A stretch of 32,273 nucleotides of DNA from Catajapyx aquilonaris (lineage: Eukaryota), in the NCBI GenBank assembly GCA_000934665.2, contig JYFJ02004414.1:1-32273 (forward strand), written 5' to 3'. This document shows positions 1 through 32,071 of this stretch, in pieces (positions within the stretch are counted from its first letter, which is position 1; every line of letters starts with the position of its first letter). Position numbers and translations under genes: made by a program. The notes below the pieces were generated by a model. The model was not told the DNA's origin. It saw only the letters and a program-made list of their open reading frames with translations, and searched no databases.

Positions 1-878
1 GGGGAAAACTGGTTATAGCAACAAAAAAAAAAAAAAACGAGGAGAAAAAATATGATGGGAGGGGTTTTGCAGTGTAGCGGAGCTGTGATAAAGAAGCTGC
101 CGGTCCCCCGGATCCATAATATTATTATCGAGCGCGCGTCTGGCTCATTTATTTTCATGTCCAGGCAGCGCTAATCGATCCTCTCGGCCTCTATTCGCTA
201 ATTGACCAATAAAAATTGCAAGCTGGGAGGGAATTCCGCTGACATCTGGCGGGATCCGGCTCCGATTTCAACACGCCAATAAGGGATTTTGCACATGACT
301 GACTCTCGTTTATGTACTGACCATTACATATGGCAAGCAGTATCATCAGGTAGTAGAAGGGGTGGAAGGAAAATCACAAATAAGTTCAACTCATGGTTCA
401 GTATTTCTGACAATAAGACACCCTGTTATTTTTACAAACTATCATTAATTCAGTGACAATAATGCTGATCCATTGATATTAAGTACAGTACATTTAAACA
501 TATTCAGCACCTGTGGTTATATTTGTACCATTTCAAGTCCGTGAAAAAATACTGGTCGTCAGAAATTGGCCCACTCGAGTTAATTTACGGTAAGGTTAAA
601 ACTTATTTGTTAAGCGAAGTTTACTAGATTCATTTGAGCAGGTCTGCGTGACCCGACAATAATTAGCTATAAAGTTCGTGTAAAAATTTAGTGGTGTCAA
701 GCACCTGAACTGTTCGGTCGGAAAACTTTTTGCTCTATCACAGAATTGCCTAAAAGGACGCCATACTCCCAAGAAACTGCAATCACCATCTTTTAAAAAT
801 ACTCTGGCACAACCTCCGAGCACTCTGACTTTGCGGGAAATGGCGGAAAATATTATATCATATTGGCGTGGACAATCT

Positions 879-3800
879 TCACATAGCAGTGTTCTGATCA
901 AATCCAAGATTGTCAACACCTGCGCCTTTATCAGAATTGTCTTCTTTGGTATCGTCTTCTGTGTGTTCCACGTATTTGTAGCGCGTGCACAATAAAAGGA
1001 AAATGATCATGTCCAGTCCCATGAGGCCAGCAAACAAGAAAAATTCCATGGACTGCCTCTTGAAGAATTTGGCCTCGGCTACGATGACCACGATCAGATT
1101 TCCGAAAGCCACTGTCAGCAGCCAGGCAGCTTGCAGCACAGACTTCATGCTTACAGGTGACTAGAAGAGAGATTACCTTATTAGTTTCGGAAAAGCGAGT
1201 CTATAATAAAGTTAACCAACCTGTGTGAATGAAAACTCCAGTCCTGTTATGGAGAACATAATCTCTCCTACAGTTATGATGAAATACTGAGGTATCAGCC
1301 ACAGCATGTGTATGGAATTTGGTTCTGTCAGGGTAAACAACTTGACTACAGGTTTCGAATTGTTTGATGAGTCTACCAGAATAGAGTAAACACCGCCTAG
1401 CCGGAGCTGAACACCACCAAGATCTGCCATGCCGCTTCTGCTATTGTCACTCATCCACACCTCGTAAATTCCGCTGTCTGTTTCCTTATAGTCACTGGCA
1501 CCCATGTCTTCACCAGTGCCATTTAGCGGAAAAATTAGTGGTTTGTCTGATGAACTGCTCCTAAGTTCTATCCGATCGCTGCTATTCTCTGCGAACACAT
1601 TATAGAGAAGTCTCACTTTTGGTTTTCCGCTCCTCGACTTGTCCAGGTCGTCTGGTATCTCCACATCGTACACTGAGAGCTCACCATCTCTCTGTCCAAT
1701 CAGTATGGTGTGGGCCTGCAAAGAAAGTCAATTAACACCAAGCGAGCTACACAAGATAGTACCATTTACCTCTTTCTCAACCGCTGTAACACTGGTCGTA
1801 AGTGTATCATTTGTGCCCAGCACACAATTTTGAAGGATATGAAATTCCACCGGAAAAGTCAAGTTTCCTTGTACATGCAAATGCCGTTGCAACTGTGAGC
1901 TTTCAGAAGCCACTGTCATTTGGAACTCCGGTGACGTGGATCTAACTTCAACGGGGCATGGAAGTGAATTGATGAAGACCAGGTGTGCCGATCCTGCAAC
2001 AGGAAGGTCAGGGTACGTCTTCTCCAGCTTGAGTTCCACTATTCCGGACACCACAAAGGCGAGTCCTGCAAGAATCCCTCCGACGATCATCCTCTGCAAC
2101 GGCTTCACCAGAAGGCCACATTTGGCGAAGACAGGATACACACATCCTTCGAATATGGGTATAAAGGCCAGGATCAAGAATGGGTTGATCACTTGCATTT
2201 GATCAGGCTTGATGGTGTAGCTGCCAATCTCGCCGTCCATCCTGGTGGCTTGGAATGTCCATCGGGAGCCTTGCTGGTCAAAGAGAGCCCAGAAGATCGG
2301 TAGGGGTACATAGAGCAACAGGACTCGAAGGACGGCCTTGATGTCTTCGATCAAGGTGCGATCGAATTTGTTGTCAGCCCAGTCCAACCAGTGAGTTCTC
2401 TTTTCGTTGCGGGATGTGTCAGTGACGCGACGACGTTGTCTCCACTTTTGCTTCACAGCGTGCTGAAAAAACGGGCCATTCAAAAATCGAGTACATGAAC
2501 CGTGTGATGATTAGTTCCCCACGTACCGTCATGCAATTCCACACAGTGACAATGATGGCACCCTCAGGAGCAAGCATTTTATAAAGGGGTTTCCCAGCCA
2601 CAAAGATAACTGCAGCGAAAGATTAGTTAGTGTTAGGTTATGGCAAGAAGAAGCGCAACTGAAGTAAGAAAAGACAGAGATCCTTGTCCGACATGCATTG
2701 TAATACTAGGTGTCACATTGACACTTTATGCACTATCTAGGTTCTTTTTTTGAAGCACATGTTCAAAAATCATGCAACAGCAGATACATGCATATAGTGA
2801 TATGGCACGGCATGCGTGTGAGTTGGTTGGGTTAATTATAAACGAGTTTCTAATATGCCGTTATAGGTAAGACTCACAGTCATACACCTCGTCACTTGCA
2901 ACACCACGTTGCCAGTAGGCTGTTTGATTATGTACATACTTTTTCCGGCCAGAAAAAGAACTGCAAGATATTTGAAATGACCACCTGATAATCACACAAC
3001 ACTTCAAATATCTACGACACTTACGCAAAGAAACGATCATTAGGATGGCAGGTACTCCAAAAGCAAGGGAGTAACACGTATCGTTTCCGTAGCACTTGAC
3101 ATCCTGCCTCAATATCGGCGTCAGAAACGTCGAGATGAGCGACCCTGCATTGATCGAAAAGTAAAAGACGGAGAAGAAGCTCTGCAGTTGCCTCTGCTGA
3201 TCCGGAAGCTTAAACTGGTCTCCTCCAAAGGCCGACACGCAGGGCTTGATTCCTCCTGTCCCAAGAGCTATCAAGGCAAGTCCCAGCATGGAGAAGGCAG
3301 TGGATGGTAGCTTAAGAGGAGGAAGAGCCGCGAAGCTGAGGACCACGTTGCCCAGAGCGTAGATTATGGAGACGTAGAAGATGGTCCTGAACTTGCCCAG
3401 GAGGGAATCGGCCAGTATGGCTCCCAAAAGAGGGGTGAAATAGCACAGCATGTTGAACGAGTGGTATATCACAGTGGAGTCGTCCTCGGAGAACTTCAAC
3501 ATCCCGTTCAGGTACAGGGCCAAGATCGCTGTGGAGGGATCAAATGGATGAATCTTTCTCTCATGGGTGGATACCATCACAGAGGTATATGATGTGCCAG
3601 TTAGTTACAGGAAAAAATAGGAAAAAAATAACCTGGCTGGTATGAGGTGCAGGATTATAATGGTGAATATAGCGTAGGCTACTCATAGTAAAACTGTACT
3701 GCAAAACAAGCTCGTTGCATTACAGGCCGGTTGGACGCAACGACCGCAACAATTACGGTGCCTACGCAGGATTTATGAGAACAAATCATATAAATAGTCC

Positions 3801-6614
3801 CGTGGACTTTGTGTCAGACATTTTGACGCCCTTAATTTGAAAATGGAAACGCGTTATGTTGATATAATAACACCAAATATGGGCACTTTGATCATAGAAA
3901 ATTGTGTACGTTATACAGCATAATTTAGTCAAGCTTTGCTTATCCACCTTCTAAAATATGTATTTGTCCAAATGGTGCGTTTTAACATGAAACGAAAGTT
4001 AAACTGGGAATTAATGCACAAAGAATGGCTATTATGGCTGTAAATAATTACGGGATAAATTATCCTAATATAACGAAAATTAGATTTCATATGCGCTGAT
4101 TTCACAACACATTAAATTTCATGAAGAGTGAACCTTTCAGTGTTTTTCGTCCTAGTGAATATGTAAAGGATTTGCTTCTGCACTGTTTCACAGCTATATG
4201 TGAAGCATTATTACACCACACTCACTATAGGCGTGTGTAAGACTGTACAGTGCCAGGCACCAACTAGACGATTATTCCGATATTTTTCGTGCAGCCTGTC
4301 ACCCACCGCAGGTCATATGAGGGGGAAAAAATCTAACCACCGCGGGCAATGGGCTGTTCGCGATTCAATTTGCATTAGCGCAGTCCGAAAAAAAATGCTT
4401 AACAGTAATAAAATCGCATGCGCCTATTAGTATTAAAGCAAATATGCAGCCGACTCGAGAAATAAACACAATTATAAAATGCAATCTGCCAGGCCACGTT
4501 AGGCAGCCAATAATCACTTGGACACACATTACAACTATTTGATTACGTACTGCATTCGCAACACGCATAATATTGATCAGAGTTAGTTGCTTAATTCGGT
4601 GCAGCAGCAGAAGGCTATAATGAGTGAATTTGTTACAAGTACAGTGTCATCATGGATTTGACGGACTCGCATGCAGCAGGCAGGACATTATGGGAACATG
4701 GGAGAGGAATCAAGGCCGTTCCCTGCCAGCAATTCAGGCAGATGTGAGGCGGAACCAATCAGTAATTACAGCCAGGCTTGCAGGTGTGCAAGACTCACTT
4801 TTCATCCCATAGAACGAAAACCTCTCGCAGAACTCGTTTCCGACGATGAAAAACACCGACTTCGGATATTTCGGCTTCTGTAAAGAAAATAAGAACATTG
4901 ACGTATATTAATGAGGAGCGTAATCTACTTATGTTGTAATGAGTTTAACATCTGCAGTAATAGGGACATGGGGTAACCTTGAGATGATCACAATGACAAT
5001 CCCTTGATGTCACAGGTTGATGCATAGGTCATGTCCTTCCATTGTTCTGGTTCCGTCGCAAAATCTTTGCAATACCGTGTTGACACGCTGGCCTTTAATT
5101 CAATAAGCATATGACTAGTCGGTACATTCAACATAGAGTCGTTAAGATTAAATGTCTCCTGGAGTTTTGTACCATACTTTACACTATTTCAATATTAGAT
5201 GAGGTCAATTAGCGCCGATCCAAAGGGTATACATAAGCCTAAATAGCAATTGGATTTAAGTGCATTTAAATTCGAATTCGATCAAGTAACTAACAATCAA
5301 TCGCCATTGATTAGTAAAACACAAAAATTAGTCAAGATGTACCATAAAGGCCATCAGTCGGTGCCATTCAGCAGGATGAAAAACTGGTGCTTTAGGGATA
5401 TATTCTGAAAGGGGCGTTTTGTTATTACACTGTTTACTGCCGCGGCTTCGTATATTGCAACTGATGGAGAAAACAATACCATGACAATAATCCCATGATA
5501 CAGAAAGAAACATCCGTAATATTATTTTGTGTCTAAATGCAACAAATACCACTGGAGCAATAAAATTCAACACACGCCGGAATGTGAAAGAGACAAATGA
5601 TTGCCTTTTTATTGCTGTCTCATACGTAGGTAAAACTCGCAGATAAAAACTATTTTTAATATAACCGGTATCGGCAGCGCAAAACATTCAAGGCCAAAAT
5701 CTGACATTATAAGGCACCTTTTCTTCACATCCAATAATCAACATTTTCTGGCCCCTGAACAATGTTACGCAACAACAGATTACGTGATTTTCAACGTGGG
5801 ACATTAGCGCCCATCTGCCAGATGACGACACGCATAATAAGGAATATTCCCATACCGGAAGGACAACAACAATGAATATAACACTGTCAAAAAAAAAGGA
5901 CATAAAAAACTACTTTACGCCCGAGTGACAGTCGATTGAACGAAATGTAGGTGAGAGTATAGATATAGAGTCGCGTAGGAAGCAAGGGGCGAAATGAAGT
6001 GGGGCAAAAGCAACAGGTTTCACCCCCTGGTCTCTGTTACACCCACTTGGCTGCGCATGTTCGACTTGATCCGGGATCATTCTCCGTTCTCTTTTTCTCA
6101 AACGAACCTCTAGGCCTTCCATCATTATGCCCCGCCACAGCCTTTCGTGCATAATCAAGTCACTTAAACGTCGCTCCAAAATCGCCTTTAGGCTATATCC
6201 TCTTTTCCTCAATCCGTAGAATCAATACGCGCTCCCCATTTGATTATGGTTTTTCTATTGTTATCAGGAGCACAGCGTGGACCTGAATTCCCGCCATTTT
6301 TCAATCCCCTTTGTTTGGAAGCTGGGATCGCCTGCGTCATAATATCAGGTCGAACCGGTTTCAATGTCCAGTTTTGGTATGCAAAAACGGGGTTTCATTT
6401 TTCGCATTTTTGGAGCGTAATTTGCACTAGTGGCTATATTTCAACTACTGTCAGTACGTTGTCCACTGGCTGCAAATTGGATATATCTTACACGTGATTT
6501 GCATAGGGGGTGACATGTGTGTCCATGGTTCAATGGTTGTCGTTCTATAACGAGATGTCTCACCTTCTTCTGGTCTGGATAGGCCGCATCCTCCATGTCT
6601 TGTAAGCGCCCCAT
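879..6614 (-). CDS. yin: SLC15/POT family proton-coupled oligopeptide transporter (PepT1/yin-like), spliced, about 728 aa with the proximal first exon
   Basis: Exons 6614-6564, 4877-4799, 3528-3025, [2960-2878 or 2609-2527], 2462-1770, 1715-1221, 1160-879 join in frame at GT-AG sites. Motifs: EFCERFSFYG (ExxER), GAILADSLLGKFRTI, GTGGIKPCVSAFGGDQF, FYFSINAGS, WALFDQQGSRWTFQA, IPQYFIITVGEIMFSITGLEFSFTQSP. Orthology to yin is inferred from motifs only. Confidence 0.93.
2527..2609 (-). CDS. Mutually exclusive exon A of the PepT1-like gene (83 nt, LIFVAGKPLYKMLAPEGAIIVTVWNCMT)
   Basis: Acceptor tttcgctgcag, donor gtacgt, phase 1 to 0; homologous to the end of TM6 and the following loop of PepT1. 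Confidence 0.85.
2878..2960 (-). CDS. Mutually exclusive exon B of the PepT1-like gene (83 nt, LLFLAGKSMYIIKQPTGNVVLQVTRCMT)
   Basis: Acceptor tatcttgcag, donor gtgagt; same length and phase as exon A; conserved G..Y....P.GN pattern. Confidence 0.88.
4799..4877 (-). CDS. PepT1-like exon with the ExxER motif (KPKYPKSVFFIVGNEFCERFSFYGMK), absent from the ORF track
   Basis: Acceptor ttctttacag, donor gtgagt; 79 nt, the same length as the paralogous exon 20366-20288. Confidence 0.95.
6063..6212 (-). mobile_element. Degraded RTE-type non-LTR retrotransposon 3' fragment
   Basis: Translation SLKAILERRLSDLIMHERLWRGIMMEGLEVRLRKRERRMIPDQV resembles the RTE ORF C-terminus (RR..GHI.RH..LL..I.EG..EG.R.RGRPR....DQI); recognised by eye only. 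Confidence 0.45.
6564..6614 (-). CDS. Candidate proximal first coding exon of the PepT1-like gene (MGRLQDMEDAAYPDQKK)
   Basis: Start context caaccATGg; donor AAG|gtgaga; phase 0 matches exon 4877. Confidence 0.65.
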
Positions 6615-7530: not shown

Positions 7531-7604
7531 CTTTTCCGCCGACGACTCCGAATCGGTGCCATCGTAGCTGTCCCTCTTGACCTCGGCATCCAAAAGGGCA
7601 GTAG
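7531..7604 (-). CDS. Candidate internal N-terminal exon of the PepT1-like gene (xTALLDAEVKRDSYDGTDSESSAEK)
   Basis: Acceptor ttttcgttcatttcag, donor AAG|gtcaga; phase 1 in, phase 0 out (fits exon 4877); GC-rich and coding-like within an AT-rich intron. Confidence 0.7.
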
Positions 7605-9667
7605 CTGAAATGAACGAAAATTTTGTCGAAAATCTTTTCTACTTTGCTGTAAAATAGATCCTACATTTATTAGTGGCATCAACCATTAATAAAAAGAGAC
7701 CTACTCTATTGTCAAAATAGCGAAGAAATGTAGTGTGACAGAAGTTACGTGGTATTTTACTTCAAACAAGACCTTTCACTTGCTGGATAGTGGAATGCCT
7801 ATATCTGTTATGATTGGCAGATAGCAGTACACCGCAAACATAATTATAATGTCCATAGTACATAATGACATACACGAATATAACATACTGCAGGTGGCCA
7901 TAGCGTATACAGTACATGCCCAGTTTTTCTATACTGTGGGAATAAGTTACACAGCACTATAAAAGTGATATGTAATTTTAATTACTGCAGGCATGCAGTT
8001 TCACTGAAGTTGATGGGTGTACCTTTCGAGAAACTAAAGTAATGCGGCCCTGTAAAAAAATCGATACACCTTATAGGGCGTTCAAATGTTCGTAGTGTTT
8101 AGACATTTTCTGGCCGTATCAGTTGCTTTTGCTTAGCCTTAGTCGCTATTAGTGGTTATCGTAAGTATTAGTAGAAAATATTAGACCGAATTGAATCATT
8201 TATTCCAGTTCTGATTTGTAATATTTCCTGTTGGTTATGGCCCATTGGAAACAATAGGAACAGGACGTCAATGATAAACCCATTTTTGAAGGCCAGAGGA
8301 AGAATAAAGATTATTATAATAACTACTGTACAACATACTGTAGGACGACCTATGTATATAGAATAATTCCGCGTATTTCTTATCAGGTAACCGATAGGCA
8401 CATTGGCCAATTTTGTGGCATACCAAGTACTGTACATGTAGAAATGGAGCATAAACATTGGCCAAATTGTGCTACATTAAAAACCACAGTAATTTCTCAG
8501 GGCTGTTGATACCATATCCATCAAAAATTTAGCGGAGACTGACATTCAGTATTACAGTACGTCCATAAAGTACGTCACACCGGCTTTTCTAAACGATTTA
8601 GCATAATATATTACCATTAGTCTGCGCCAAGGACTTTCGATATCTTACATTTCTAGTCTTATCAAGTGATTCTATTGAGTAATGCAAATAAACTTACTGC
8701 CAATTACGCCATAAAAATGAGATGTAGACATATGAGACTAAGCCATTGACGAGTGCAAGACACTCTTTTATCATATCGGTTATGTACACCTTAAATTATG
8801 TGCACAACAAAGCTCGTGACAACAAGGAAAAGGCGCAGTTGTTTTATCAAAAGAATCGATAATAGACTATAATGCCTTCCAACCCAAAATAATCTGGCGG
8901 TATCGGAGCTGGCGGTGTAACGAGGAAGTCGACTATCTTCGTTTTGACGCAAGTTTATAGTTAGGGGTAAAAATCGTTTGTATGTCAAGCGTTTGTGCCA
9001 TAACAATAGAGCGCGTGGTTCGAACATAACACTGCCATTAGTTAGGTACTGGAAGAATGGTCTTTTCGCAAAGTAGGCTCCCTGCGGCCTGCTTCCTTCT
9101 CTCCAAATAAGTAGTACTCAATTTGCACCACCAACTTTAATTTATGTAGACATAAGGCACGGTAACGGAAGGTACGCATTTTGTAACTATTCTAATTGTA
9201 ATTCTAATACCTTGGGTAGGTACTGTTGGTTGTTGTCTACTTTTGACTGCATGTTCCCATGTCAAGTACTGGATCTACCGACAGCACTCACAACTGTGAC
9301 ATTACCGATAATACATGGATGTAAATTTAAAGCCAAACAACCATAGCTAATGTCTTGTAACCTAGGTGATCACGTCACACACATTGAAACAGAAAATAAT
9401 TATGCAAATTTTAATGACATGCTGAAATGAAAAACAACAAAAATCCATGCAAAATATTGCGGTTAAAATCACACAATCAATTTTATATGCGGTGTTTACC
9501 CCAAGCAATTCAGGTCACCAAACCCACGCGTGAAAGCTAGATTATCTGATAGACGGTGCAGTGTTGTTATGTCGACATGCATTATTCCAAGGTGGACTTA
9601 ATCTCTGTGAGATAGTCCCCACATGCTGAAAATCTTGGTGCATAGAATGACTGCGACAGAACCATAC

Positions 9668-16868: not shown

Positions 16869-19800
16869 TTAGCTTCCTGCTATCATCTTCAGCTGACGCT
16901 TGTACCTTCTGACCAGTAGGTACAAGATGACTACGTTCAGTGCCAGCAAGGCAGCAAACATAAAAAATTCAGCGTACAGGTACTGCTTGCCGAATAGTTC
17001 TGTCTCGGCAATAGAAATCACCAGCACATGAGCTATTGCCATTCCCATCAGATACATAGTTGTCACAAGAGACTTCATTCCTACCGGTGACTGAAAAGAA
17101 AGCTCTGAGTGTATTGGCCACATATGTATAGTATATACAACTGCGGAGCAATCACCTCTGTGTAGGCCAACTCCAGTCCTGTGACGGAGAACATGATTTC
17201 TCCAAAAGTGAGAATAATGTACTGGGGCACCAGCCACATCATGTTCATCGAATTAGGCTTCGTCACGGGGTACACAAATATTCCATCTTGTGTCACCAGT
17301 ATGGAATAAACTCCGCCGGATCCGACGGGAAAGTCAATATATTTACCACTCTCCTTACTGACCAAGTACTTCCCTGGGGGAATCTCGTGGTAGTACGATG
17401 TGCTTTCAAAGACATTGCCTTCGCAAGATAGAGTGTAATTTTTTTCCTTCCCCATATATTTTTCGTCATATACCCATTCTATGGGTACTGGCAATGGGTA
17501 CCAAGGGGTTTCTTCTGCAAATTGTTACATGGCATTTACAATGATGCGGTCTATAAAATGAAATCATACAAAGATAATGTGGTCAACAATTAAGGACTAA
17601 CCAGGATTCTTGCCAAGCAGCTCAGATTCTGAAGGCTCGTTTGGATAAGGCCCTGGAAATGAAAATGTCTTATTGGTCATTTTCGAGCAATGTTTGTGAT
17701 TCAAGGCAATATACAGTATTTGAGCTGCTACAGAATCATGCACAATAATTTATTGTGCATCAATTATTGATTGTTTTGTTGCCTCATGCAGGATCCTAGA
17801 TTCCTAGTAGGCCTACAGAGAAAACAATTTTGAAACTATTTTCAGGTGAGGATATGCAAAATCGAGTTACCCTACGGCGATTCATTCTCATGCTATTAGT
17901 GAAAAGTTCTGTATATTCAATCGAAATCACCTGAAGAATAGGCACGACTGATAAACATTTTACAAGGCCTATTCATATCTGGCCCAAAATACAGTAAATA
18001 CTATAGCGATCGCACCTGTATATTCCTTTATCACCACAGTAGTGCCACAGGCGCTCCTATCATACAGAAATCTACAAAGAAAAAAACATAAAAAGAAACA
18101 TTACATGCATGTCAACATATTGACTTGAACATGACAGGTTTAGCCTACCTGAAAGAGGGAAGGCCATCGGCGAGCTTTTGTAATTCGTCCTCTTTAATAA
18201 TTTTGTGCCCCTCGGTACTTCCGTTTTCTGATGTAAGAATGTAAGTATATGCCTGAAAACAAGGGTGGTGGAGTAATGAAAACGGCTGAACGATTCTGCA
18301 ATGTCAAATCAAATAAAGTTGTCGAAACTTGAGTTAATACGGGTATTATACAAGTTATTTCCGATGCTGATAGGAATTGAGTGAAATGCACTTGACCTGA
18401 CTAGATTCTTACCTTGTTTTTTTCGACCACCACGTTTATAGTTGTATTTATTTTACACTCCGCAGATAATAATTTCGCCGTATTTTCGCCAGCAGTCAAA
18501 TGCTTGAACATGAACATTTGCTTCTTCTCTAGGTCCTTCGGATCAGAAGTCCCTACCTGCAGGTTGATTGGCTCGCATCCGAGCGCATTGATGAAGATCA
18601 AGTGCCCTTTGTCATTTCGAGGTAAATCCGCGTAGGTAGTTTTGAGCTCCAGCTCCAGTATTCCAGAGGCCACAAAGCCCAAGGTGGCAAAGACCCCGCC
18701 GACCACCATCCGGTCCAAAGGCTGCACCAAGAAGCCGATTTTGGCTCCGACTGGATACAGAACGTACTCGAATAAGGGTATCAGCAGCACCACCAGAATG
18801 GCATTGGTGACCTTCATCATCTTTGGGGGTATGCTGAACGAGCCCATGTTGCCGTTCATCATGGCAGCCTGGTTGGTCCAGCGGACTCCTTGCTGTTCGA
18901 ATTGTGCCCAGAGGAAAGGCATGGGACAAAATATGATCAGGACGCGCAGGGCAGTCTTGATGTCGTTGATCAACTGCTGGTCGAACTTGTTGTCGGCCCA
19001 GTCCAGCCAGTGATCCCTTGTTGCAGCCTGTGGTTCCGACGTTTCACTTTCTCCCTTACGACCCCGTGACATCCTACGGCTTATGGCATACTGTAACAAG
19101 AGGTGCTTTTTAATGAAGGAAATTGAGTGTACCTTGTTCTGTACAAGTGCAACCTATAGCTTTATTTGCACGACGCTATTAACATGCCATGTGATGGAGA
19201 CAATATCTATCCACTGTCATTCATTTATCACATGAACATTTCTTTAAATACATTAAAAGGTAAGTAAATGCTTACTTACACTCATGCACCGGAATATCTC
19301 CTTAACCATGTTGCACGATGGCTTGTGGATCACGTAATAATACCTTCCGACGAGAATCACACCTAAGGAATGTATTTGGTAATGTGAGATATTTTGTGCA
19401 GGCCTATCTTAACACACCTTGCTACATAGGCAACTTTACAATTAGATCGATTTTTGTTGATAACTTCCTGTATTGATGCCTTTGTCGATATACTGTATAG
19501 AACAATGGAACGACTCTCTTTGATATTCGATACAAGCATTCTTATACTGCAATAATTAAGTGCCTATGGTTGTTGGGTTATGCACAGCGACATACGTACC
19601 AAGTGAGATGACCATAAAAATGGCCAGAATTCCAAAAGCTGCAGCATCGCAATAGATTTTCCCAAAGCACTGTATTTCCCTTCGGATAATAGGAGTGAGA
19701 GGATAGGAGATGAGAACCCCTGCGTTGATGGTCAAGTAGAAGATGGCAAAGTAGGTCTGGAGCTCCTTAAATTGCTGTGGTACCACGTACTGATCGCCTC

Positions 19801-20380
19801 CAAAGCATATCACGCATGGCTTGAGTCCTCCTACTGCAATCCCGATTACAAACACCCCTATCATGGCAACCGCAATCTGAGCTGCACCTTCCATAAACCC
19901 TAGGGCAGAGATCACCACGACTAGTGAGCCTCCCACATACACGATCGTGAGGTACAGCATGGTGTGGTACTGCCCCAAAAAGGCGTCGGCCAGGCAGCCT
20001 CCGAGGAGGGAAGCGAAGTTGCAGAGGCATACAAAAGTGTGAAAGACAGTCATGTTTTGTCCTCTAGTGAACTTCAGTTCGTCGCGGAAGAATTGACTTA
20101 AGACGGCTGTAAAATGGGCAGAAAATTATTTGTTTCCAGAAAAAATTCTTCGTAGCAAGTTTGCACCCATCTCAGTTTCATGCTGCTGAATGAAACATTA
20201 CTCGCCAGAATCAGTGCAAATTTCTACAGCAAGGTTATGACTGTATGCCATATTACATACAGTATAAAGTTACATAAAATAACTTACATATCAATCCGTA
20301 GAAATATAATCGTTCACAAAACTCGCTGCCCAAGATGAAATATATACCATGCGGATACTTGAGTGTCTGGAAAAGTTCAC

Positions 20381-20479
<99 letters not shown>

Positions 20480-20591
20480 CCACCACCACCACCACCACCT
20501 GGTTTTGGTTTAAAGAAGCAGGGCTTACTTTCTCTTTTCCTCCCGCAGCTTCACCTTTTGCAGAGATGTTGCCGCCTCCTTCTTCCGCCAT
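16869..20591 (-). CDS. Second, divergent SLC15/POT oligopeptide transporter (tandem paralog), about 733 aa, 10 coding exons
   Basis: Exons 20591-20529, 20366-20288, 20106-19600, 19362-19280, 19090-18413, 18252-18149, 18071-18016, 17652-17602, 17514-17156, 17090-16869 join in frame with no stops. Motifs: EFCERLYFYG, GGLKPCVICFGGDQY, HWLDWADNKFD, VPQYIILTFGEIMFSVTGLE. Confidence 0.92.
20385..20498. repeat. Compound microsatellite (AAT)21(CAT)10(CAC)7
   Basis: Read directly; lies in intron 20367-20528. Confidence 0.97.
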
Positions 20592-21485
20592 GGTGATTCT
20601 TTGTTTCAGACCATGCTGTCAAAATATTAAAAATGACTATACGATAATGACTTCTTGTTTAAATACAGTAATATTTACCCTATGTTGCAGGAGGAGAACG
20701 AACTTTCCCGAAAGGGTGCCGAGCTCCAGGAAGGAACAATGAACTTGGCGAAGCTATTTCATATCTTTTAAAAATATGAGAACGTGGTATTGTGCGGCAA
20801 AATGAATCATATACAGAATACTTATAGTGCCGCAAGGTACATGTTCAAAGTAAGAATTGGTAAGCTTTATATTATAACCTATAGTAACGCCGTTCGAAGA
20901 AAATTTTACTTGCCTGTGACCATACTTTCGGGTTGATTGCACCGCTTAGCTGTTATAAAGTATTTTTTTGGCTGGAGAAGTGACAGTTAAATAAGAGGGG
21001 CTAGGAATTCTTTGTTTTACATGTTTGACAATGGAAATAAAATTTCAGTATATACATTTTCAGCCGAAAATGTTTGCCAGTATAGAGCTGCAACTGTCAC
21101 TTAAAAACCAGTCGACGTCAGGCTAGTATAATCAGGTACCGGTACAGGAGTTATTCCTCTGATGGCTCACATATTCGACGTAATACAGAATAGAATTCCC
21201 ACACTGCATTAAAACCTAGGCTTATTTTTTCTAGTTAATGTTCGCTAAATGGCACAAGACATGACGTTTTACTGTATGACTTTAGTAATGTGTTCAGCTT
21301 GAATAATTATTGTAGTACCTGAATTAACTTACCGCCAAGATGTTCTGGCTACATCACAGTGTCATTTTCCTGCAAATATTCCGTCCTGCTCCAGATATTA
21401 CTGTTTACTAGGCAACGCCCATTTCATTATTGGAACATATATAAATGCAGTCGGTGAACGCGAAGCTTACCAGTTATCCCTTTCA

Positions 21486-22376: not shown

Positions 22377-29845
<7,469 letters not shown>

Positions 29846-31006: not shown

Positions 31007-31011
<5 letters not shown>

Positions 31012-31042
31012 TCACAGATCTGAAGGCAAACACCTCATTGCC

Positions 31043-32071
31043 ATGGCCTTTTTGACTGGGAGCTACCTGATGGACGCACTTTTATTCGTCATCGGCATCG
31101 TATATGCTTTTTATCTTTATATGACCGCTGGCTTGAATTATTGGTCTAGTCGCGGTGTGAAATGGGTTCCCTTAGGATTTTGGACATCATTTATAGACAG
31201 GTTTGTGACTGTGAAGTATCTCGGTGACTTGGATCACAATATCTACAAGAAACTGTCCCGCATGAATGTCCAGTTTGGCGGGTTTTTTGAACTGCGGAGG
31301 CCATGCATGATGATTTTAGACCCAGAACTTTTGCGCAGCATTTACGTCAAAGATTTTGATCACTTTATCGACCGTCGTAATTTTGAGACAAGGGGGACTT
31401 CAATGTTCTCAAAGTTTCTATTCTCTCTGGACGGAATGGAATGGAAAAATTTGAGGGCCAAAATGACACCTACGTTCTCCTCTGGAAAGATGAAACGCAC
31501 TTTCGAAACTATGAGGTCATGTACCGGAAACATGGAACGTTACCTAACCGATCTTGCAAACAAAGGGGAACCAGTAGAAATGAACAATTGCTTCTCTCGG
31601 TACACTATGGATACCATAGGCAGCAGTGTTTTCGGAATTGAGTGCGACTCCTTCCACGACCAAGACTCGCAGTTTTTAAAGACAGTCAGCACTTTTCAAA
31701 CTCTGGATTTTGAAAGAATGATGCGGTTCTTTTTTACTCTTATGTTTCCAAAATTAGCTGAAAAGTTGAAGGTAAGCTATACATCCGACGATTGATTTAG
31801 TTGGTTGGGCTTCAGGACAATTATTAATATATAGACTATATTGTTGTACAGTTTCCAGTATTTCCGGATTCAGGCACCAAGTTTTTTATTGACGTTTTGG
31901 AAGCGACCATAAAGCACCGACGAGACACAGGGGATACAAGAAATGACTTCCTGCAGTTGATGTTGGAACTTCAGGCGGGACAGCTGAAAGACGATAACCC
32001 AGCTGACCATGAAGAGAACTTGCTTGAAATTGAAGCGAAAATGGCCAGCCCTGGACAGGCAGACAAATTCG
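31043..32071 (+). CDS. Cytochrome P450, CYP3 clan (CYP6-like), first two coding exons; 3' part outside the window
   Basis: Exons 31043-31771 (donor gtaagc) and 31852-32071 (weaker donor gtacct). N-terminal TM anchor, YW..RGV, DPELLRSIYVKDFDHFIDR, WKNLRAKMTPTFSSGKMK, DTIGSSVFGI, RNDFLQLMLEL. Confidence 0.93.

What the first reader, a model, noticed from the sequence alone, without database searches (positions are those of the whole stretch)
2527..2960. Tandem-duplicated, mutually exclusive 83-nt exons in a PepT1-type transporter
Seen: two homologous exons (B 2960-2878, A 2609-2527), both 83 nt with the same phases and canonical splice sites, encoding LFLAGKSMYIIKQPTGNVVLQVTRCMT and IFVAGKPLYKMLAPEGAIIVTVWNCMT. 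Including both or skipping both shifts the frame, so exactly one must be used. Known: this segment is the end of TM6 and the start of the cytosolic linker between the two MFS bundles of SLC15. Inference: tissue-specific isoforms that differ in this linker. I do not recall such an exon pair described for SLC15, but cannot search.
Basis: partly seen in the sequence, partly recalled or inferred. Interest (0 to 1): 0.85.

Follow-up and report, generated by a model that had tools for sequence, protein, structure and literature searches.

The report
Alternative exon pair in peptide transporter
An arthropod gene for a PepT1/PepT2-type peptide transporter carries two side-by-side copies of one small exon, of which exactly one must be spliced in; shrimps, lobsters and crayfish are annotated with the same arrangement, so it is a real but fairly ordinary splice switch.

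Summary
On the minus strand lies an SLC15 (POT/PTR2) gene with two homologous 83-nt exons, B at 2960-2878 and A at 2609-2527. They share the same phase and have AG/GT splice sites. With either exon alone, the open frame of the model (5' end unresolved) runs 711 codons to the natural stop. With both exons it stops after 248 codons, and with neither after 208.

The only public run that holds the locus contains a spliced transcript contig that uses B and skips A. It also contains a low-depth contig that covers A and ends exactly at A's donor site. So use of B is shown, and use of A is inferred.

In 5 of 5 decapod species checked, isoforms of one SLC15 gene have identical flanks and differ only in this segment. 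No barnacle or insect isoform set did. Whether the window's pair and the decapod pair share one origin is open.

The segment is the cytoplasmic end of TM6, a loop, and the start of the first "bundle bridge" helix.

Four paper searches found no description of this pair. This scan had no earlier SLC15 note, though it holds notes on other exon pairs in the same genome. Tissue specificity is untested.

Verdict: a new member of a known kind, of moderate interest.

The parts
7531..7606 (-). Upstream coding exon (partial). The transcript contig ends here and the start codon was not found.
   Evidence: joint 4877>7531 in contig 1; the frame is open, with no ATG in this stretch.
4799..4877 (-). Exon encoding the start of TM1, with the POT ExxERF-type motif.
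3025..3528 (-). Constitutive exon covering TM1-TM6 (most of TM6). It ends with one base of a split codon.
   Evidence: PTR2 profile positions 1-115; joints; ends at human PepT1 residue 213 and PepT2 residue 232.
2961..3024 (-). 64-nt intron before exon B. It folds into a stable hairpin (arms 3013-3000 and 2979-2966) that spans nearly from donor to acceptor.
   Evidence: inverted repeat I1: 14 nt, 93% complementary. (-18.7 kcal/mol, z = -3.33, 1 of 200 shuffles folds as well).
2878..2960 (-). Exon B, 83 nt. This is the variant used in the observed transcript, and it resembles the single exon of insects and the decapod B-type.
2610..2877 (-). 268-nt intron between B and A.
   Evidence: It is too long for steric exclusion.
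2527..2609 (-). Exon A, 83 nt. This is the alternative variant, with an intact frame and AG/GT sites. It is covered by a low-depth RNA contig that ends at 2527.
2463..2526 (-). 64-nt intron after exon A, with no stable structure.
   Evidence: z = +1.94.
1769..2462 (-). Constitutive exon covering the rest of the cytoplasmic linker and TM7-TM9.
   Evidence: (PTR2 from profile position 152).
1221..1714 (-). Exon covering the extracellular domain region and TM10.
361..1160 (-). Last exon. The stop codon is at 881-879, followed by the 3' UTR.
19280..19362 (-). The equivalent exon of a second, divergent SLC15 gene in the window. It is also 83 nt with the same phase, and is present once only.

Best explanation
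This is a genuine cluster of two tandem-duplicated, mutually exclusive exons in a PepT1/PepT2-like proton-coupled peptide transporter gene. Each mRNA takes B or A.

The two proteins are identical except for 27 residues. Those residues form the last turn of TM6 at the cytoplasmic face, the following loop, and the first half of the first amphipathic helix of the linker ('bundle bridge') that joins the N and C bundles. B is the main, ancestral-looking form. A is a diverged form that is less basic and more hydrophobic, and that lacks the Asn of the otherwise conserved Gly-Asn.

Mutual exclusion is enforced at least by the reading frame. Because 83 is not divisible by 3, double inclusion or double skipping gives an early stop and, presumably, nonsense-mediated decay.

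Inferred: the switch tunes something that depends on the cytoplasmic face, such as transport kinetics, membrane or lipid contact, sorting or partner binding. It does not change the substrate pocket.

Shown: the anatomy, the frame logic, the use of B, the position in the fold, and the same kind of pair in decapods. Inferred: productive use of A and any functional difference.
For: - **Anatomy and homology:**
- **Frame logic:**
- **B in RNA:**, contig 1 (2730 nt) joins 2462|2878 and 2960|3025, and every skipped stretch has CT..AC ends on the + strand, which is GT..AG on the gene's strand.
- **A in RNA:**, contig 2 (212 nt, depth 3.5) covers 2527-2738 and ends exactly at A's last base. That is where an assembly graph would branch if both spliced and unspliced reads were present.
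- **A has been kept by selection:**
  - Synonymous sites between A and B are saturated (dS 1.59, dN 0.68; 41 of 81 nt identical).
  - Even so, A still scores 79 against the whitefly exon and 75 against the ostracod and sawfly exons (BLOSUM62 local scores).
  - A keeps its frame, an AG acceptor preceded by branch-site-like CTAAC/CTAAT, and a GT donor.
- **Precedent in decapods:**
  - Homarus, Panulirus, Penaeus japonicus, P. chinensis and Cherax (5 of 5) have isoforms of one gene that differ only here. The two forms are 29 and 27 residues long, so both exon lengths are 2 mod 3.
  - Logan-assembled proteins (P0079 and P0100 against P0103, on contigs of about 3 kb) carry both types.
  - The P. 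vannamei/P. monodon cluster holds 14 members of one type and 1 of the other.
- **Position in the fold:**
Against: - No read or contig shows the junction 3025>2609 or 2527>2462.
- The one contig over A runs on into the intron upstream of A, so it may be pre-mRNA or DNA carry-over.
- Only one run was available, of unknown library type and tissue.
- A gave no Pfam PTR2 match even at E <= 10, whereas B gave E = 0.049.
- A has lost the Asn of the conserved Gly-Asn.
- A is no more like the decapod A-type (scores 43-66) than the decapod B-type (54-72). Long conservation of A as such is therefore not demonstrated.
- dN/dS of about 0.42 over 27 codons at saturation is a weak measure.
Confidence: 0.7

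Rival explanations
1. Exon A is an unused relic of an old exon duplication (a pseudo-exon). The gene makes only the B form.
For: - The only full transcript contig uses B.
- A has no Pfam match, and the conserved Asn is replaced.
- An open frame of 27 codons is not rare by chance; by my own arithmetic from 61 of 64 sense codons, the chance is about 0.27.
- The neighbouring paralogue manages with a single exon.
Against: - Synonymous sites between A and B are saturated, yet A keeps family-typical residues and scores 75-79 against exons of distant arthropods. A neutral copy of that age should be unrecognisable.
- Both splice sites and a branch-site-like motif are intact.
- The RNA contig ends exactly at A's donor.
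- Decapods use such a pair.
Confidence: 0.2
2. Exon A is used mainly as a 'poison' exon. It is spliced in together with B, which shifts the frame and sends the mRNA to decay, so that it lowers transporter output and makes no second protein.
For: - B plus A stops after 248 codons.
- A's donor seems to be used while the sequence upstream of A is still unspliced in contig 2.
- Passages of PMC5740500 report exon-joining reads in 83 of 377 human clusters whose exon lengths are not divisible by three.
Against: - A poison exon does not need a conserved, family-like peptide in the correct frame.
- In decapods the A-type segment sits in full-length models, including Logan-assembled ones.
- No B-A junction was seen.
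Confidence: 0.07

Closest known systems
NCBI isoform sets of decapod SLC15 genes: Homarus americanus (isoforms X1-X8), Panulirus ornatus (X1-X8), Penaeus japonicus, P. chinensis, P. vannamei/P. monodon, and Cherax quadricarinatus
   Same: - One gene gives two forms with identical flanks that differ only in the segment between the end of the TM1-TM6 exon and the start of the linker exon.
- One form closely resembles the window's exon B (scores 75-86).
- The exon lengths implied are 2 mod 3, so the frame logic is the same.
   Different: - The decapod A-type is two residues longer (29 against 27) and ends differently.
- The window's A is not clearly its orthologue (scores 43-66, against 54-72 with the decapod B-type).
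- The window's A and B share an unusual last three residues, which hints at a separate duplication or at concerted change.
- The decapod evidence is automatic gene models plus assembled transcripts. I found no paper about it.
Tandem-duplicated, mutually exclusive exons of arthropod and vertebrate membrane-transport genes (ion channels, ABCC9/MRP, PMCA), as reviewed in PMC9741552 and PMC5740500
   Same: - Homologous neighbouring exons of equal phase replace one another and modulate a structured part of the protein without rebuilding it.
- Length not divisible by three acts as a safeguard (passages read).
   Different: - SLC15 does not occur in the main text of either paper (0 occurrences each; supplements not read).
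- The usual other mechanisms were checked here. Steric hindrance is not met (268-nt intron), and there is no U12-type donor.
Human PepT1 and PepT2 (PDB 7PMW/7PMX/7PN1 and 7PMY) and their 'bundle bridge'
   Same: - The window's protein aligns along the transporter core.
- The alternative segment corresponds to about residues 214-241 of human PepT1 and to about 233-260 of PepT2.
   Different: - No alternative exon at this place in vertebrates came up in my searches.
- The paper calls the role of the bundle bridge 'currently unclear' (passage).

Membership tests
SLC15 / POT (Pfam PF00854 PTR2), PepT1/PepT2 branch | Match to the PTR2 profile above Pfam's cut-off | tested here: met
   upstream exon 155.1 bits and downstream exon 157.3 bits, against a cut-off of 27.
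SLC15 / POT (Pfam PF00854 PTR2), PepT1/PepT2 branch | Closest solved structures are PepT1/PepT2, not SLC15A3/A4 | tested here: met
   PepT2 E = 1.9e-60 and PepT1 E = 3.3e-49 for the window's upstream exon. (lobster orthologue): PepT1/2 about 1e-158, against SLC15A4 about 1e-31.
SLC15 / POT (Pfam PF00854 PTR2), PepT1/PepT2 branch | Signature motifs on TM1 (ExxERF type) and TM5 region. That these are the family's signatures is recalled, not taken from a call. | tested here: met
   Both are present in the translation of the spliced model.
SLC15 / POT (Pfam PF00854 PTR2), PepT1/PepT2 branch | Proton-coupled di/tripeptide transport | not testable with these tools
   Needs an uptake assay.
Mutually exclusive exons from tandem exon duplication | Neighbouring exons are homologous, with the same length class and phase and with their own splice sites | tested here: met
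Mutually exclusive exons from tandem exon duplication | Each exon alone keeps the frame; both or neither break it | tested here: met
   711 codons with either exon alone, 248 with both, 208 with neither.
Mutually exclusive exons from tandem exon duplication | Splice-junction reads from each exon to both constitutive neighbours, and none joining the two productively (the criteria of PMC5740500, passages) | tested here: inconclusive
   both junctions are seen for B and none for A. Only one run was available, and only as contigs.
Mutually exclusive exons from tandem exon duplication | Both variants kept in other species | tested here: inconclusive
   A pair at the same place occurs in 5 of 5 decapods, but orthology of the window's A to the decapod A-type is not shown. 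No close relative of the window's organism was available (best identity 75%).
MXE control by steric hindrance | The donor of the first exon lies less than about 50 nt from the branch point of the second | tested here: not met
   The intron between B and A is 268 nt.
MXE control by U2/U12 splice-site incompatibility | One intron has U12-type sites | tested here: not met
   All three donors are GTAAGT, GTGAGT or GTACGT, and all acceptors are AG. Judged by eye against the recalled U12 consensus.
MXE control by docking-site/selector RNA pairing | One intronic site is complementary to a selector beside each variant exon, and this is conserved in relatives | tested here: inconclusive
   Only a local hairpin in the intron before B and weak 11-13-nt long-range complements were found. 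There were no relatives in which to test conservation.

The most novel reading that the evidence does not exclude
The window's pair and the decapod pair descend from one duplication. That duplication would be older than the split between this lineage and Decapoda, which are about as far apart as decapods and insects by this protein. It would have been lost, or left unannotated, in insects and barnacles. If so, this is an ancient pancrustacean switch that changes only the TM6 end and the first bundle-bridge helix. It would then be a natural experiment on a part of SLC15 transporters whose role is called unclear in the structural paper. The stable hairpin in the intron before exon B could take part in the choice between B and A.
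Probability: 0.3. Interest if true: 0.55.

Novelty: new member of a known kind. Interest (0 to 1): 0.4.

Why it matters
Mutually exclusive exons are common in arthropods, so the device itself is not new. The same switch is already present, without comment, in automatic decapod annotations.

What it offers is a clean pair of natural isoforms of a PepT1/2-type transporter that differ only at the cytoplasmic end of TM6 and the first helix of the 'bundle bridge'. The structural paper on human PepT1/PepT2 says the function of that element is unclear (passage). Comparing the two isoforms in transport assays and in localisation would test directly whether this element affects kinetics, membrane association or sorting.

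It also matters for annotation. Gene models that take only one exon, or both, misdescribe the gene.

Tried and rejected
- **RNA evidence.** The look-up of sequencing runs listed one holder and none on record as RNA ('no RNA holder listed'). That run behaved as spliced cDNA when laid. Parts of the gene without cover are not evidence.
- **Whole genome.** None is held for this window, so no search for further copies or relatives' genomes was possible.
- **Protein searches aimed at the A variant.**
  - The 67-residue frame around exon A, residues 1-40, gave 6 candidates and none scored E <= 10.
  - The lobster A-type region gave 24 candidates and 9 hits, which were lobster itself plus distant single-form proteins.
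  - Neither search widened the taxon sample.
- **Segment tree.** I wanted a tree of the 27-29-residue segments to test A-to-A orthology. I dropped the tree and rely on the pairwise scores, so orthology stays open.
- **Pfam on the bare exons.** B was weak (E = 0.049) and A gave nothing. The exons are too short to be informative.
- **A second copy in the neighbouring paralogue.** No second copy of the exon, or relic of one, was found there.
- **Long-range RNA pairings.** The 11-13-nt complements with mismatches cannot be told from chance without relatives.
- **Start codon.** Not found. The frame is still open at the end of the transcript contig.
- **First spliced model.** One search had an off-by-one exon end and wrongly made 'neither exon' look in frame. 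It was corrected.
- **Taxon.** Not settled. Notes of other agents on the same genome guess crustacean or springtail-like hexapod (unchecked). My data say only that it is equidistant, at about 54%, from lobster and from termite and cockroach.

Full report
**What is there.** The first 7.6 kb of the window hold, on the minus strand, a gene of the SLC15/POT family.
- Pfam PTR2 matches the large upstream exon (155 bits, profile positions 1-115) and the large downstream exon (157 bits, from position 152).
- The nearest solved structures are human and rat PepT2 and human and horse-type PepT1 entries (E = 1.9e-60 to 3.3e-49 for one exon alone).
- Two 83-nt exons lie between these two exons: B at 2960-2878 and A at 2609-2527.
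- Each is preceded by AG and followed by GT (GTGAGT and GTACGT). Each begins with two bases that finish a codon started at 3025, and each ends on a codon boundary before the exon that starts at 2462.

**Is it more than chance?** Yes.
- Each peptide finds the other over all 27 residues in a six-frame search of the whole window (11 of 27 identical, E = 1.9e-5). The next best hits have E = 0.27 or worse.
- The first 20 or so bases of the exons and their acceptors form a direct repeat (25 nt, 80%, spacing 351 nt).
- The gap in the PTR2 profile (positions 116-151) fits one such exon, and B alone aligns to profile positions 118-142 (E = 0.049).

**Frame logic.** I built spliced models in a script, using the exon borders seen in RNA.
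- With A alone or B alone the frame stays open for 711 codons to the natural stop at 881-879.
- With both it stops after 248 codons, and with neither after 208.
- My first try had the upstream exon end one base off and was wrong; one search corrects it.

**RNA.** Only one public run holds the locus. Its library type is not on record.
- Laid on the window, its contig 1 (2730 nt, depth 44) joins 361-1160, 1221-1714, 1769-2462, 2878-2960, 3025-3528, 4799-4877 and 7531 onward. Every skipped stretch has CT..AC ends on the plus strand, which is GT..AG on the gene's strand.
- This is a spliced mRNA that uses B and skips A.
- A second contig (212 nt, depth 3.5) covers 2527-2738. That is exon A plus 129 nt of the intron upstream of it, and it ends exactly at A's last base.
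- A contig end on that very base is what a de Bruijn graph gives when reads diverge there into spliced and unspliced continuations. This is my inference, not a reading of junction reads, and pre-mRNA or DNA carry-over remains possible.
- The junctions 3025>2609 and 2527>2462 themselves were not seen.

**Is A alive?**
- A and B are old copies: 41 of 81 bases are identical, differences by codon position are 13/9/18, dN is 0.68 and dS is 1.59, which is saturated.
- A neutral copy of that age should have lost all likeness. Yet A scores 79 against the whitefly exon and 75 against the ostracod and sawfly exons.
- A keeps its frame, an acceptor preceded by CTAAC/CTAAT branch-site-like motifs, and a GT donor.
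- Against this, A has no Pfam match of its own, it replaces the Asn of the widely conserved Gly-Asn, and dN/dS of about 0.42 on 27 codons is weak.

**Relatives.**
- No close relative is in the protein collection. The best identity to the upstream exon is 75% (an ostracod), with barnacles, decapods and insects at 66-74%. This comes from 6802 hits among 8000 scored candidates, of which 120 were listed.
- The full model is about 54% identical to lobster and to termite and cockroach proteins alike, and about 52.5% to barnacles.
- Decapods have the same device.
  - Two lobster records of one gene are identical in the flanks and differ only in this segment.
  - Counts by type: 7 A-type and 2 B-type of 9 Homarus proteins; 5 and 5 of 10 Panulirus; 3 and 1 of 4 Penaeus japonicus; 5 and 1 of 6 P. 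chinensis.
  - Cherax has both types: 4 B-type, 2 A-type and 2 fragments lacking the segment, out of 8.
  - The P. vannamei/P. monodon cluster has 14 and 1 of 15.
- In an all-against-all screen of the 169 of 171 proteins in which the segment could be located, every pair with at least 93% identical flanks but a different segment was a decapod pair. These include Logan-assembled proteins from contigs of about 3 kb.
- No two-form set appeared elsewhere. I checked:
  - two barnacles;
  - Zootermopsis, Cryptotermes, Periplaneta, Bacillus, Neodiprion/Diprion, Nilaparvata, Bemisia and Onthophagus;
  - 26 Drosophila proteins in three clusters;
  - eight unnamed plankton-like or insect-like clusters.
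- This rests on annotation and on clusters at 90% identity. It does not show that a second exon is absent from those genomes.

**One origin or two?**
- The window's B is plainly of the decapod B-type and insect type: scores are 75-86 to decapod B, up to 94 to insect-like proteins, and 23-40 to decapod A.
- The window's A is ambiguous: 43-66 to decapod A and 54-72 to decapod B.
- For a shared origin: in both lineages the A form starts with the Ile-Phe-Val pattern and the B form with Leu-Phe-Leu, and in both the A form has lost the Asn after the conserved Gly.
- Against a shared origin: decapod A is two residues longer, and the window's A and B share an unusual final tripeptide.
- The tree I intended for this could not be run (see Tried and rejected). 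I put a shared origin at about 0.3.

**Where it sits in the protein.**
- The upstream exon ends at residue 213 of human PepT1 and 232 of PepT2. The fourth residue of the downstream exon aligns with PepT1 residue 245. The segment therefore corresponds to about residues 214-241 of PepT1.
- An AlphaFold model of the lobster B isoform was built from an alignment of 34 sequences (mean pLDDT 76.3, pTM 0.74; blocks over the segment 71-85).
  - It has the TM6 helix at 248-268, a loop at 273-281 and a helix at 282-299.
  - The segment (265-291) is thus the last turn of TM6, the loop, and the first ten residues of the next helix.
- Passages of PMC8565842 describe this linker as two interacting amphipathic helices on the inner leaflet, the 'bundle bridge'. 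They say its role is 'currently unclear' and may lie in lipid sensing or partner binding.
- From the peptides, B has three basic residues and no acidic one. A has two basic and one acidic residue and a more hydrophobic second half.

**How exclusion works.**
- Steric hindrance is excluded because the intron between B and A is 268 nt.
- No U12-type donor is present.
- The frame rule applies. Passages of PMC5740500 list this, with decay of the shifted mRNA, as one of the accepted safeguards.
- The 64-nt intron before B folds into a hairpin that is unusually stable for its composition: -18.7 kcal/mol, z = -3.33, and 1 of 200 shuffles folds as well. It pairs bases just after the donor with bases just before the acceptor.
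- The intron after A and the region before A's acceptor are unstructured (z = +1.94 and +1.41).
- The hairpin could speed up or hinder use of B's acceptor and so bias the choice. Without relatives this stays a lead.

**Context in the window.**
- A second, much diverged SLC15 gene lies at about 16.9-20.6 kb on the same strand. Its equivalent exon (19362-19280) is also 83 nt in the same phase but occurs once.
- So the exon borders are old, and the duplication is specific to the first gene.

**Literature.**
- Four full-text searches returned no paper describing alternative exons at this place in SLC15. I saw listings and the starts of abstracts only. The search terms were:
  - 'mutually exclusive' + SLC15 + exon;
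  - 'mutually exclusive exons' + 'peptide transporter';
  - PepT1 + crustacean + isoform;
  - 'mutually exclusive' / 'oligopeptide transporter' / Drosophila / 'tandem exon duplication', at least 3 of 4.
- 'SLC15' does not occur in the main text of PMC9741552 or PMC5740500. Their supplements, which hold the gene lists, were not read and could bear on this.
- This scan's own notes hold no SLC15 finding. They do hold several other exon pairs in the same genome that are said to be shared with decapods (unchecked).

**Verdict.** The exon pair is real and correctly described. It is most likely a working mutually exclusive switch (0.7), with B as the main form. It is a new instance of a known kind, already present without comment in decapod annotations. 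It is of moderate interest, because it isolates the TM6 end and bundle-bridge region of a peptide transporter.

Noticed in passing
window 2961-3024 (minus strand): The 64-nt intron just before exon B forms a 14-bp hairpin (arms 3013-3000 and 2979-2966). It is far more stable than shuffles (z = -3.33), while the intron after exon A is unstructured. It may bear on exon choice.
   Followed up: partly
window about 16869-20618 (minus strand): A second, strongly diverged SLC15/PepT-like gene lies in tandem orientation. Its equivalent 83-nt exon (19362-19280) is present once only.
   Followed up: partly
window about 20380-20560: A long trinucleotide-type microsatellite reads as runs of Val, Met and Ile in one frame. 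It lies just upstream of the first recognisable coding exon of the second SLC15 gene.
   Followed up: no
window about 22983-28399 (minus strand): A series of open frames with the look of C2-domain, ferlin-like exons (otoferlin/misfire type, judged by eye from the translations). Not searched.
   Followed up: no
window 31007-31795 (plus strand): A 262-residue open frame that looks like the N-terminal half of a cytochrome P450 (judged by eye). Not searched.
   Followed up: no
window 7781-8000: A separate low-depth contig of the same run (282 nt, depth 3.6) lies upstream of the last transcript-supported exon. It may be a further 5' exon or intron RNA of the SLC15 gene. The start codon of the gene was not found.
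   Followed up: no
window 3260 and 3286: The transcript contig differs from the window at two bases inside the large upstream exon (C>T and G>A on the plus strand). These are probably allelic differences.
   Followed up: no
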